Below, in pieces: positions 18,501 to 21,500 of a DNA stretch of 64,000 bases. The stretch's first letter is position 1. Every line of letters begins with the position of its first letter. The DNA is from Escherichia coli (GTDB taxonomy: Bacteria > Pseudomonadota > Gammaproteobacteria > Enterobacterales > Enterobacteriaceae), in assembly GCF_003334405.1 (NCBI RefSeq), contig NZ_QOWM01000001.1. The stretch is one strand, 5' to 3'. The position numbers were made by a program.

Positions 18501-21500
18501 ATTCTCACCGTAACGAATCAGCGGATACCATGATTATCAAACGCACTCCTCAAGCCGCGTCGCCTCTGGCTTCGTGGCTTTCTTATCTGGAAAACCTGCA
18601 CAGTAAAACTATCGATCTCGGCCTTGAGCGCGTGAGCCTGGTCGCGGCGCGTCTTGGCGTCCTGAAACCAGCGCCATTTGTGTTTACCGTTGCGGGTACG
18701 AATGGCAAAGGCACCACCTGCCGTACGCTGGAGTCGATTCTGATGGCGGCAGGGTACAAAGTGGGCGTCTACAGTTCGCCTCATCTGGTGCGTTATACCG
18801 AGCGCGTACGTGTGCAGGGCCAGGAATTGCCGGAATCGGCCCACACCGCCTCTTTTGCGGAGATTGAATCGGCACGCGGTGATATTTCCCTGACCTATTT
18901 CGAGTACGGTACGCTGTCGGCGTTGTGGCTGTTCAAGCAGGCACAACTTGACGTGGTGATTCTGGAAGTAGGGCTGGGCGGTCGTCTGGACGCAACCAAT
19001 ATTGTCGACGCCGATGTCGCGGTAGTAACCAGTATTGCGCTGGATCATACCGACTGGCTGGGTCCAGATCGCGAAAGTATTGGTCGCGAGAAAGCAGGCA
19101 TCTTCCGCAGCGAAAAACCGGCAATTGTCGGTGAGCCGGAAATGCCTTCTACCATTGCTGATGTGGCGCAGGAAAAAGGTGCACTGTTACAACGTCGGGG
19201 CGTTGAGTGGAACTATTCCGTCACCGATCATGACTGGGCGTTTAGCGATGCTCACGGCACGCTGGAAAATCTGCCGTTGCCGCTTGTCCCGCAACCGAAT
19301 GCCGCAACAGCGCTGGCGGCACTGCGTGCCAGCGGGCTGGAAGTCAGTGAAAATGCCATTCGCGACGGGATTGCCAGCGCAATTTTGCCGGGACGTTTCC
19401 AGATTGTGAGCGAGTCGCCACGCGTTATTTTTGATGTCGCGCATAATCCACATGCGGCGGAATATCTCACCGGGCGTATGAAAGCGCTACCGAAAAACGG
19501 GCGCGTGCTGGCGGTTATCGGTATGCTACATGATAAAGATATTGCCGGAACTCTGGCCTGGTTGAAAAGCGTGGTTGATGACTGGTATTGTGCGCCACTG
19601 GAAGGGCCGCGCGGTGCCACGGCAGAACAACTGCTTGAGCATTTGGGTAACGGCAAATCATTTGATAGCGTTGCGCAGGCATGGGATGCCGCAATGGCGG
19701 ACGCTAAAGCGGAAGACACCGTGCTGGTGTGTGGTTCTTTCCACACGGTCGCACATGTCATGGAAGTGATTGACGCGAGGAGAAGCGGTGGCAAGTAAGT
19801 TTCAGAATCGGTTAGTGGGCACGATCGTGCTGGTGGCGCTGGGGGTGATTGTACTTCCAGGGCTGCTGGACGGGCAGAAAAAACATTATCAGGATGAGTT
19901 CGCGGCTATCCCGCTGGTGCCGAAAGCGGGCGATCGTGATGAGCCTGATATGATGCCAGCCGCCACCCAGGCGTTACCGACGCAGCCGCCGGAAGGCGCA
20001 GCGGAAGAGGTGCGGGCAGGTGATGCCGCAGCACCGTCGCTCGATCCGGCCACTATTGCAGCCAATAACACCGAGTTTGAACCGGAACCTGCACCGGTCG
20101 CCCCACCGAAGCCGAAACCGGTGGAGCCGCCTAAACCAAAGGTTGAAGCACCACCTGCGCCGAAGCCAGAACCGAAGCCGGTCGTGGAAGAAAAAGCTGC
20201 ACCGACGGGTAAAGCCTATGTTGTGCAACTGGGTGCGCTGAAAAATGCCGATAAAGTGAATGAGATTGTCGGTAAGCTGCGCGGTGCCGGTTATCGGGTT
20301 TATACGTCGCCATCCACGCCAGTGCAGGGTAAAATTACCCGTATTCTGGTTGGGCCGGATGCCTCGAAAGATAAGCTGAAAGGTTCGCTGGGTGAGTTGA
20401 AGCAACTTTCTGGCTTAAGTGGCGTGGTAATGGGCTATACGCCGAATTAATACGGTCTTGCCTGATGCGACGCTGGCGCGTCTTATCAGGCCTACGCAGG
20501 GGTAGAACCGTAGGTCGGATAAGGCGTTTACGCCGCATCCGACACGCATTGCCCGATGCCGCAAAGGCATAAAAAGTCGATGGCGTTGAATATTTTTTCA
20601 GCGCCATTTTTATTGATGCGCGGGAAGGAAATCCCTACGCAAACGTTTTCTTTTTCTGTTAGAATGCGCCCCGAACAGGATGACAGGGCGTAAAATCGTG
20701 GGACACATATGGTCTGGATTGATTACGCCATAATCGCGGTGATTGCTTTTTCCTCTCTGGTTAGCCTGATCCGCGGCTTTGTTCGTGAAGCGTTATCGCT
20801 GGTGACATGGGGTTGTGCTTTCTTTGTTGCCAGTCATTACTACACTTACCTGTCAGTCTGGTTTACGGGCTTTGAAGACGAACTGGTTCGAAATGGGATT
20901 GCCATCGCGGTACTGTTTATCGCTACCCTGATCGTTGGTGCTATCGTGAACTTCGTGATAGGCCAGTTGGTGGAGAAAACGGGGTTGTCAGGCACCGATC
21001 GGGTGCTGGGCGTCTGTTTCGGTGCGTTGCGCGGTGTGTTGATTGTTGCTGCCATTCTCTTCTTTCTCGACTCCTTTACCGGGGTGTCGAAAAGCGAAGA
21101 CTGGAGCAAATCACAGCTGATCCCGCAATTCAGTTTTATCATCAGATGGTTTTTTGATTATCTGCAAAGCTCGTCAAGTTTCTTGCCCAGAGCGTAAGTG
21201 CTCTGAGATGTGGCTTAACGAGGAAAAAGACGTATGTGCGGTATTGTCGGTATCGCCGGTGTTATGCCGGTTAACCAGTCGATTTATGATGCCTTAACGG
21301 TGCTTCAGCATCGCGGTCAGGATGCCGCCGGCATCATCACCATAGATGCCAATAACTGCTTCCGTTTGCGTAAAGCGAACGGGCTGGTGAGCGATGTATT
21401 TGAAGCTCGCCATATGCAGCGTTTGCAGGGCAATATGGGCATTGGTCATGTGCGTTACCCCACGGCTGGCAGCTCCAGCGCCTCTGAAGCGCAGCCGTTT

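What the first reader, a model, noticed from the sequence alone, without database searches (positions are those of the whole stretch)
20637..20665. Pur box overlapping the promoter of cvpA-purF-ubiX
A consensus PurR operator (ACGCAAACGTTTTCTT) lies just upstream of a TAGAAT -10 hexamer. This places the membrane protein gene cvpA and the prenyltransferase gene ubiX under purine repression together with purF, an operon composition that is still functionally unexplained.
Basis: partly seen in the sequence, partly recalled or inferred. Interest (0 to 1): 0.25.

Follow-up and report, generated by a model that had tools for sequence, protein, structure and literature searches.

The report
Known PurR operator at cvpA-purF promoter
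This is the textbook binding site of the purine repressor PurR on the promoter of the E. coli cvpA-purF-ubiX operon, mapped and tested decades ago, so the finding is correct but ordinary.

Summary
ACGCAAACGTTTTCTT lies at 20637-20652 and TAGAAT at 20660-20665, in the dedD-cvpA spacer of an E. coli chromosome.

A PurR matrix built from 26 other published sites scores the box at 21.5 bits. It is the only strong hit in the 64 kb window; the next best scores 11.3 bits. It is the same 16-mer that Cho et al. 2011 list under their PurR ChIP-chip peak for cvpA-purF-ubiX.

A published start-site map puts +1 at G20673, with 240 reads. The box therefore spans -36 to -21. TGtTAGAAT is an extended -10 element at -16 to -8.

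The box plus -10 block is unchanged in 78 of 79 Enterobacteriaceae species. It is also present in Photorhabdus, Dickeya and Erwinia, and in 5385 of 5422 E. coli genomes.

The mechanism is that PurR, loaded with hypoxanthine or guanine, blocks RNA polymerase at the promoter. All of this is already known.

ubiX is not tied to purF as tightly as cvpA is:
- A conserved hairpin follows the purF stop codon.
- A TTGCAA-N17-CAAAGT promoter is conserved in 69 of 70 species, and a weak mapped start lies exactly 7 nt downstream of it.
- Ten of 80 species have no ubiX after purF.

By contrast, cvpA-purF adjacency reaches homologues that are only 40% identical.

The parts
20579..20608 (+). Intrinsic terminator hairpin of the upstream folC-dedD unit, followed by a T-run. 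It marks the upstream limit of the cvpA control region.
   Evidence: Terminator scan: 12-pair stem followed by TTTATTGATG. It is conserved across 71 distinct Enterobacteriaceae sequences.
20637..20652 (.). Pur box, the PurR operator: ACGCAAACGTTTTCTT with a central CG. It spans -36 to -21 relative to the mapped TSS, covering the weak -35 region and most of the spacer.
   Evidence: Sequence. Leave-one-out PWM score 21.5 bits against 11.3 for the next best site. Same 16-mer as the Cho 2011 ChIP-chip motif at MG1655 2,428,842-857. Unchanged in 78 of 79 species. Present in Photorhabdus, Dickeya and Erwinia.
20657..20665 (+). Extended -10 element TGtTAGAAT. TG is at -16/-15 and the hexamer at -13 to -8.
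   Evidence: Sequence. TTTCTGTTAGAAT is unchanged in 78 of 79 species, and one species has TATTAT instead. The consensus scan did not call this promoter because the -35 is poor.
20666..20672 (+). G+C-rich discriminator GCGCCCC between the -10 element and +1.
   Evidence: Sequence. It is nearly invariant. Its resemblance to stringently controlled promoters is my inference and was not tested.
20673..20673 (+). Main transcription start of the operon (G).
   Evidence: Kim et al. 2012 Table S1 lists a TSS at MG1655 2,428,821 on the minus strand, with 240 reads and a 36-nt 5' UTR. The listed sequence ends ...TAGAATGCGCCCCG. Mapping is window = 2,449,494 - MG1655 coordinate.
20709..21197 (+). cvpA, encoding an inner-membrane protein of the Colicin_V family.
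   Evidence: NCBIfam NF008100, 338 bits against a cut-off of 264. RefSeq annotation.
21234..22751 (+). purF, encoding amidophosphoribosyltransferase, the first step of purine synthesis. It starts 36 bp after cvpA.
   Evidence: TIGR01134, 541.8 bits against a cut-off of 350. RefSeq annotation.
22763..22783 (+). G+C-rich hairpin AGGGTGCC-ggtct-GGCACCCT, 12 nt after the purF stop, with no T-run in E. coli. It is probably a partial terminator or a 3'-end stabiliser.
   Evidence: Sequence and fold. All 70 species fold the segment between the purF stop and the ubiX promoter motif to -12.8 kcal/mol or stronger, although its sequence varies. In Klebsiella, Raoultella and L059 the hairpin is followed by a T-run.
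22787..22815 (+). Candidate internal ubiX promoter: -35 TTGCAA (22787-22792), a 17-bp spacer, and -10 CAAAGT (22810-22815).
   Evidence: TTG[CT][AG]N-N17-CA[ACT][AT]GT, with exactly 17 bp between the hexamers, is present in 69 of 70 species. A and T at positions 2 and 6 of the -10 hexamer are always kept.
22822..22822 (+). Weak ubiX transcription start, 7 nt after CAAAGT.
   Evidence: Kim et al. 2012 Table S1 lists a TSS at 2,426,672 with 8 reads and a 24-nt 5' UTR.
22846..23415 (+). ubiX, encoding flavin prenyltransferase. It starts 94 bp after purF.
   Evidence: NF004685, 310 bits against a cut-off of 188. RefSeq annotation.
23424..23446 (+). Terminator-like hairpin TTGCCCTG-ttt-CAGGGCAA followed by TTTT, just after the ubiX stop. 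It is the likely end of the operon.
   Evidence: Read directly from the sequence. The scan did not list it because only 4 T follow the stem.

Best explanation
The 16-bp element at 20637-20652 is the PurR operator (the 'purF operator') of the E. coli cvpA-purF-ubiX operon. It lies at -36 to -21 of a sigma-70 promoter that has a poor -35 and relies on an extended -10 element (TGtTAGAAT). Transcription starts at G20673.

When purines are plentiful, the PurR dimer loaded with hypoxanthine or guanine binds the box and keeps RNA polymerase off the -35 and spacer region. This lowers transcription of cvpA and purF.

ubiX is transcribed partly by read-through past a hairpin that has no T-run. It also has a weak, conserved promoter of its own, 24 nt upstream of its start codon, so its coupling to PurR is looser.

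Shown here or in cited papers: the sequence, its score, its conservation, PurR occupancy in vivo, PurR binding in vitro, and the TSS positions. Inferred: steric occlusion as the mode of repression, and how much of ubiX expression depends on PurR.
For: Sequence and uniqueness:
- The box and -10 element are at the stated coordinates.
- The leave-one-out PWM gives 21.5 bits against 11.3 for the next best site in 64 kb.
- It is the only match to the palindrome at up to 3 mismatches.

Published PurR binding:
- Cho 2011 report a ChIP-chip peak at 2,428,603-2,428,965 with the motif AAGAAAACGTTTGCGT at 2,428,842-857. This is the same site on the other strand. It was occupied only with adenine, at log2 1.77.
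- PurR shifts a cvpA-purF fragment (-171 to +56) in EMSA.
- RegulonDB lists the site.

Promoter:
- The TSS is at window 20673 with 240 reads in purine-free medium.

Conservation:
- Box plus TTTCTGTTAGAAT is unchanged in 78 of 79 Enterobacteriaceae species.
- Positions 20634-20662 are almost fully invariant in 71 distinct sequences.
- The element is present in Photorhabdus, Dickeya and Erwinia.
- A 46-nt core is at least 99% identical in 5385 of 5422 E. coli genomes and occurs once per genome.
- The same 16-mer lies upstream of H. influenzae cvpA-purF.
- A 23.2-bit box precedes a cvpA-purF pair whose CvpA is only 40% identical.

Regulation:
- The Pur-1 iModulon contains cvpA-purF.
- Y. pestis purF is up about 4-fold in a purR mutant.

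For ubiX.
Against: Nothing contradicts PurR binding here.

Caveats:
- Expression values for cvpA and ubiX in the purR mutant were in a supplement that I could not read.
- The occlusion mechanism is inferred from position and was not measured here.
- Weak TSS signals of 3-7 reads exist inside cvpA, so a small PurR-independent input to purF cannot be excluded.
- The ubiX promoter rests on 8 reads plus conservation.
Confidence: 0.95

Rival explanations
1. The Pur-box-like 16-mer is a chance match with no regulatory role.
For: At up to 3 mismatches to the palindrome, shuffled windows give 0.36 matches on average. Loose matches are therefore not rare.
Against: The site has only 2 mismatches and scores 10 bits above any other site in the window. 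It lies in the promoter of the first purine-synthesis gene. It is unchanged across dozens of genera while the flanks vary. PurR binds it in vivo and in vitro.
Confidence: 0.01
2. All three genes form one tight unit, and ubiX is repressed by purines as strongly as purF. The spacer motifs and the 8-read TSS are then noise or processing sites.
For: - The unit is annotated as cvpA-purF-ubiX.
- The three genes show similar sigma-70 to sigma-S ratios (1.85-2.12) in in-vitro run-off transcription.
- The E. coli hairpin has no T-run.
- The ubiX TSS has only 8 reads against 240 for cvpA.
Against: - TTGxxx-N17-CAxxGT keeps exactly 17-bp spacing in 69 of 70 species, within an otherwise variable spacer.
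- The mapped TSS lies exactly 7 nt after this -10 element.
- Klebsiella and Raoultella have a full terminator between purF and ubiX.
- Ten of 80 species have other genes after purF.
- ubiX is missing from the Pur-1 iModulon list.
- ubiX goes up in stress data sets in which cvpA and purF go down.
Confidence: 0.25
3. purF has a substantial promoter of its own inside cvpA, so the Pur box mainly controls cvpA.
For: Seven weak TSS signals lie inside cvpA, at window 20848-21066, and are assigned to purF.
Against: - Each has 3-7 reads against 240 at the main TSS.
- No promoter-like site was found on the + strand inside cvpA.
- The cvpA-purF spacer is only 36 bp.
- cvpA mutations have been reported as polar on purF.
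- purF itself responds to PurR.
Confidence: 0.04

Closest known systems
The E. coli purF operator bound by PurR. From my own knowledge: Makaroff and Zalkin 1985; Rolfes and Zalkin 1988; He et al. 1990; the operator used for the PurR-DNA crystal structures of Schumacher et al. 1994. From papers read here: Cho et al. 2011.
   Same: It is the same site, not merely a relative. The 16-mer, the genomic position and the downstream genes are identical.
   Different: Nothing differs. The window is an E. coli chromosome segment that maps base for base onto MG1655 at the four landmarks I checked.
Other operators of the E. coli pur regulon (purL, purMN, purHD, purEK, purC, purT)
   Same: All are 16-bp near-palindromes with a central CG and score 19-24 bits on the same matrix. 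Most lie between or over the -35 and -10 elements.
   Different: The right half of the cvpA site is degenerate, TTTTCTT instead of TTTGCGT. This degenerate half is itself conserved. It is the only one of these operators that heads an operon with a membrane-protein gene and a ubiquinone-cofactor gene.
LacI/GalR-family operators such as lacO1
   Same: A dimeric repressor binds a short palindrome centred on a CG step that overlaps the promoter. A small ligand controls binding (one search treats PurR and LacI side by side).
   Different: PurR needs its ligand to bind, so the ligand is a corepressor. LacI is released by its ligand. There is no evidence here for auxiliary operators or DNA looping: no second strong site lies within the window.
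Bacillus subtilis PurR and its PurBox
   Same: It is also a purine-responsive repressor of a pur operon.
   Different: By established knowledge it is an unrelated protein that senses PRPP, and its DNA motif is different. It is not relevant to this sequence.

Membership tests
PurR (LacI-family) operator, the Pur box | A 16-bp imperfect palindrome matching ACGCAAACGTTTGCGT with a central CG | tested here: met
   14 of 16 positions match. The score is 21.5 bits on a matrix built without this site, within the 10.5-24.2 bit range of its 26 training sites.
PurR (LacI-family) operator, the Pur box | Position overlapping the promoter of a purine-regulon gene | tested here: met
   The box lies at -36 to -21 of the TSS mapped at window 20673. 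purF is the second gene of the unit.
PurR (LacI-family) operator, the Pur box | Bound by PurR protein | not testable with these tools
   This is documented in papers: ChIP-chip and EMSA with purified PurR.
PurR (LacI-family) operator, the Pur box | Binding depends on a purine corepressor | not testable with these tools
   Cho 2011 report occupancy at this promoter only when adenine was present.
PurR (LacI-family) operator, the Pur box | Conserved at orthologous promoters | tested here: met
   Unchanged in 78 of 79 Enterobacteriaceae species. Present in three other Enterobacterales families and before a cvpA whose product is only 40% identical. Reported in H. influenzae.
Single cvpA-purF-ubiX operon | Same strand, short spacers, and no intrinsic terminator between the genes | tested here: inconclusive
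   cvpA-purF meets the criterion, with a 36-bp spacer and no terminator. For purF-ubiX, the 94-bp spacer holds a strong hairpin without a T-run in E. coli. Six Klebsiella and Raoultella species and L059 have a T-run after it.
Single cvpA-purF-ubiX operon | One promoter serves all genes | tested here: not met
   The main TSS is at 20673 with 240 reads. ubiX also has TSSs at 22822 (8 reads) and 22738 (10 reads). The 22822 start lies behind a promoter conserved in 69 of 70 species.
Single cvpA-purF-ubiX operon | Gene order conserved in relatives | tested here: inconclusive
   cvpA-purF are adjacent in all 80 Enterobacteriaceae loci, in all 3 loci from other Enterobacterales families, and in 6 of 8 informative distant contexts. 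ubiX follows purF within 220 bp in 69 of 80 loci. It is 751 bp away in one and absent within 2.4 kb in ten. It follows purF in 2 of the 6 distant contexts that keep purF, in one of them only after a 730-bp gap.

The most novel reading that the evidence does not exclude
The most novel reading that the evidence leaves open has two parts.

1. The ancient functional unit is cvpA-purF. It is kept even in lineages with no detectable Pur box. This would point to a still unknown role of the membrane protein CvpA connected with PurF or purine supply.

2. ubiX is a later neighbour. A conserved weak internal promoter (TTGCAA-N17-CAAAGT, TSS 22822) and a conserved post-purF hairpin shield it from PurR control. 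Ubiquinone cofactor synthesis would then continue when purines repress the operon.

I found no paper in the searchable library that describes this ubiX promoter.
Probability: 0.45. Interest if true: 0.25.

Novelty: already known. Interest (0 to 1): 0.07.

Why it matters
As a finding it matters little.

Two small points remain:
- The comparative data show which part of the odd operon is old (cvpA with purF) and which part is loosely attached (ubiX). This narrows the open question about the operon's composition to a possible link between CvpA and PurF.
- The annotated three-gene operon probably hides a constitutive ubiX promoter. That matters to anyone using this unit as a PurR reporter or modelling ubiquinone synthesis.

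Tried and rejected
1. Chance match. Rejected on score, uniqueness and conservation.

2. Consensus promoter scan. It did not call the cvpA promoter because the -35 is poor. The promoter was established from the TG extension, conservation and a published TSS.

3. Covarying stem in the 5' UTR. An inverted repeat at 20666-20671 and 20686-20691 shows compensatory changes in Dickeya, Photorhabdus and Erwinia.
- Its 5' arm lies upstream of the mapped +1, at -7 to -2.
- Its folding energy is no better than that of shuffles (z = -0.3).
- Within Enterobacteriaceae it hardly varies.
- I do not count it as an RNA element of the main transcript.

4. Sigma-54 promoter in the purF-ubiX spacer. TGGCACcctgacTTGCA has a GG-to-GC spacing of 11 instead of 10, and the TGGCAC is not conserved. 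Rejected.

5. Rfam search of 20400-23700. Only sub-threshold naRNA4 (REP element) hits appeared between dedD and cvpA. Nothing was found in the promoter or the spacers.

6. Papers and supplements I could not obtain:
- The supplements of Cho 2011 and Conway 2014, wanted for expression and operon tables, are not held.
- Fath 1989 and Makaroff 1985 are not held.
- A literature search for dedF, an older name for ubiX as far as I recall, together with purF returned nothing.

7. Second PurR ChIP region in the window (fabB-mnmC). Its published motif, at 10269-10284, scores only 8.0 bits and lies inside fabB. I did not pursue it.
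Full report
**What is at the coordinates**

The window segment 20300-21100 reads ...ggaaatccctACGCAAACGTTTTCTTtttcTGtTAGAATgcgccccgaacagg....
- The 16-mer is at 20637-20652.
- TG is at 20657-20658.
- TAGAAT is at 20660-20665.

The surrounding ORFs, all on the + strand, are:

| Gene | Coordinates |
|---|---|
| dedD | 19770-20450 |
| cvpA | 20709-21197 |
| purF | 21234-22751 |
| ubiX | 22846-23415 |
| argT | 23681-24463 |

The stretch 20400-23500 is 100% identical to several E. coli chromosomes, and all 5426 complete E. coli genomes carry it. RefSeq annotates it as dedD, cvpA, purF, ubiX. The three proteins score above the curated NCBIfam cut-offs for colicin V production protein, amidophosphoribosyltransferase and UbiX flavin prenyltransferase.

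The dedD terminator hairpin is at 20579-20608. The cvpA control region is therefore the 100 bp from 20609 to 20708.

**Is it more than chance?**

I built a log-odds matrix from the PurR motifs in Table 1 of Cho et al. 2011. I left out this site and the other motif from that table that falls in the window (fabB-mnmC).
- The site scores 21.5 bits.
- The next best 16-mer in the 64 kb window scores 11.3 bits.
- The 26 training sites themselves score 10.5-24.2 bits.

The perfect palindrome ACGCAAACGTTTGCGT, allowing up to 3 mismatches, matches only here, with 2 mismatches.

**It is the published site**

Cho et al. 2011 (PMC3159470) list a PurR ChIP-chip peak at MG1655 2,428,603-2,428,965 for cvpA-purF-ubiX. 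Its motif is AAGAAAACGTTTGCGT at 2,428,842-857, the reverse complement of the window 16-mer. They count this promoter among the previously characterised PurR targets, occupied only when adenine was added.

The conversion window = 2,449,494 - MG1655 coordinate reproduces four landmarks exactly:
- the Pur box;
- the published fabB-mnmC motif at window 10269-10284;
- both ends of cvpA;
- the ubiX start.

Other papers agree:
- Purified PurR shifts a cvpA-purF fragment (-171 to +56) in EMSA.
- RegulonDB-derived lists contain the 16-mer.
- From my own knowledge, this is the 'purF operator' of Rolfes and Zalkin 1988 and He et al. 1990, and the DNA used in the PurR co-crystal structures. I could not open those papers.

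**Promoter anatomy**

Kim et al. 2012 (PMC3415461, Table S1) mapped transcription starts in cells grown in M9 glucose without purines. They report a cvpA TSS at 2,428,821 on the minus strand, with 240 reads and a 36-nt 5' UTR. The listed upstream sequence ends ...TTCTGTTAGAATGCGCCCCG.

This corresponds to G20673, which gives the following layout:

| Element | Position relative to +1 |
|---|---|
| Pur box | -36 to -21 |
| TG | -16/-15 |
| TAGAAT | -13 to -8 |
| Discriminator GCGCCCC | -7 to -1 |

The -35 region (TACGCA or ACGCAA) is poor, which is why the consensus scan missed this promoter. The TG extension presumably compensates for it.

PurR bound at -36 to -21 would cover the -35 region and the spacer. 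Repression by keeping RNA polymerase off the promoter follows from this geometry. It agrees with the general statement in Cho 2011 that PurR sites lie between the -35 and -10 elements. It was not measured here.

**Conservation**

A scan of one genome per species returned 80 Enterobacteriaceae loci.
- Of the 79 loci with enough upstream DNA, 78 carry ACGCAAACGTTTTCTT followed by TTTCTGTTAGAAT, at -70 to -75 from the ATG.
- One locus has a single consensus-compatible change in the box (A to T at position 7).
- One locus has TATTAT as its -10 element.
- In 71 distinct sequences, 20634-20662 is almost entirely invariant.

The block also occurs outside the family:
- Photorhabdus, Dickeya and Erwinia have it.
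- A 46-nt core is at least 99% identical in 5385 of 5422 E. coli genomes and occurs once per genome.
- The same 16-mer lies at -82 of H. influenzae cvpA-purF.
- A 23.2-bit box precedes a folC-SPOR-cvpA-purF cluster whose CvpA is only 40% identical.

**Regulatory consequences**

Evidence that cvpA and purF respond to PurR:
- The Pur-1 iModulon lists cvpA-purF among PurR-repressed genes.
- In Y. pestis, purF rises about 4-fold in a purR mutant, and cvpA was among the differentially expressed genes chosen for qRT-PCR.
- cvpA mutations have been reported as polar on purF.

Only 3-7-read signals exist inside cvpA, against 240 at the main start. No promoter-like site was found there either.

**The ubiX qualification**

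The 94-bp purF-ubiX spacer is not inert.
- **Hairpin.** A perfect 8-bp G+C-rich hairpin (22763-22770 paired with 22776-22783) lies 12 nt after the purF stop.
- **Hairpin conservation.** In 70 species a stable hairpin is always present, although its sequence differs. In Klebsiella, Raoultella and one other locus it is followed by a T-run, which makes it a complete intrinsic terminator.
- **Promoter motif.** Immediately downstream, TTG[CT][AG]N-N17-CA[ACT][AT]GT occurs with exactly 17-bp spacing in 69 of 70 species. A and T at positions 2 and 6 of the -10 hexamer are always kept. In the window this is TTGCAA at 22787-22792 and CAAAGT at 22810-22815.
- **Predicted start confirmed.** Before seeing the TSS table I had placed the start about 7 nt after this -10 element. 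Kim et al. list a ubiX TSS at 2,426,672, which is window 22822 and exactly 7 nt after it. It has 8 reads. A second 10-read signal lies at window 22738.
- **Linkage is not universal.** Ten of 80 species have no ubiX within 2.4 kb of purF. S. enterica subsp. arizonae has a 480-aa gene on the opposite strand there; its sequence looks to me like a sigma-54-dependent activator, but I did not test this. K. oxytoca has a 655-aa gene on the opposite strand.
- **Expression data.** ubiX is absent from the Pur-1 iModulon list. It goes up in stress data sets where cvpA and purF go down.
- **Counter-evidence.** The three genes behave alike in in-vitro run-off transcription, and the E. coli hairpin has no T-run.

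My reading is that ubiX gets read-through transcripts when the operon is derepressed. It also has a low, PurR-independent supply from its own promoter.

**How old is the gene pairing?**

I looked at eight informative contexts of CvpA homologues that are 40-59% identical.
- purF follows cvpA directly in six of them. In one, I identified the gene cut off at the contig end as purF by translating it.
- ubiX follows purF in two.
- A strong Pur box is present in one of the seven for which DNA was available.

cvpA-purF is therefore the old core and is wider than PurR control. ubiX is a looser neighbour. What CvpA does for purine synthesis, if anything, remains unknown. Current work links it to colicin V export, deoxycholate resistance and envelope stress.

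**Verdict**

The finding is already known and interest is low. The one modest addition is the conserved internal ubiX promoter and the hairpin after purF.

Noticed in passing
window 22763-22822: A conserved hairpin follows the purF stop codon. Just downstream is a TTGCAA-N17-CAAAGT promoter, conserved in 69 of 70 species, with a published weak TSS exactly 7 nt after it. No paper in the searchable library describes a ubiX promoter.
   Followed up: yes
L006 6081-7523 (S. enterica subsp. arizonae); L037 6099-8066 (K. oxytoca); eight other loci: In 10 of 80 Enterobacteriaceae species the position after purF is not occupied by ubiX. The two loci I inspected have other genes there, on the opposite strand. 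The purF-ubiX junction is therefore a recurrent insertion point.
   Followed up: partly
window 20424-20569: A cluster of REP elements lies between the dedD stop and its terminator. It gives three sub-threshold Rfam naRNA4 hits (35-38 bits against a gathering score of 59.5). In some E. coli strains an IS621 copy is inserted in this spacer, in the same orientation as cvpA, and leaves the Pur box and promoter intact (L090).
   Followed up: partly
window 20666-20691: The inverted repeat GCGCCC...GGGCGT starts right after the -10 element. Dickeya, Photorhabdus and Erwinia show compensatory changes in it. However, its 5' arm is upstream of the mapped +1, and its folding energy is no better than that of shuffles. 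It remains unexplained. The G+C-rich discriminator also resembles those of stringently controlled promoters, which is my inference only.
   Followed up: partly
window 10269-10284 and 10735-10750: A second PurR ChIP-chip region from Cho 2011 (fabB-mnmC) falls in the window. Its published motif scores only 8.0 bits and lies inside fabB. The second-best PWM hit in the window (11.3 bits) is about 450 bp further into fabB. Both are doubtful as real operators.
   Followed up: partly
window 20848-21066: Published TSS mapping lists seven weak 5' ends (3-7 reads each) inside cvpA, assigned to purF. They may be minor internal starts or processing products.
   Followed up: no
window 23597-23612 and 23535: TGGCATaagacCTGCA upstream of argT has the GG-N10-GC spacing of a sigma-54 promoter, and an RpoN gSELEX peak is reported between ubiX and argT. 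The strong TSS mapped in ammonium medium (303 reads) lies further upstream, at window 23535. argT therefore seems to have two promoters.
   Followed up: no
window about 20422, and 20453-20710 minus strand: A low-intensity RpoN gSELEX peak is reported between dedD and cvpA (MG1655 2,429,072). An in-vitro run-off study reports a transcript from the cvpA upstream spacer in the opposite direction. I found no clear sigma-54 motif or minus-strand promoter there.
   Followed up: no
window 21188-21205: A 6-bp inverted repeat, CAGAGC-gtaagt-GCTCTG, has the cvpA stop codon in its loop, 28 nt before the purF start. Several species have a longer cvpA-purF spacer (94-183 bp) in place of the usual 33-40 bp.
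   Followed up: no
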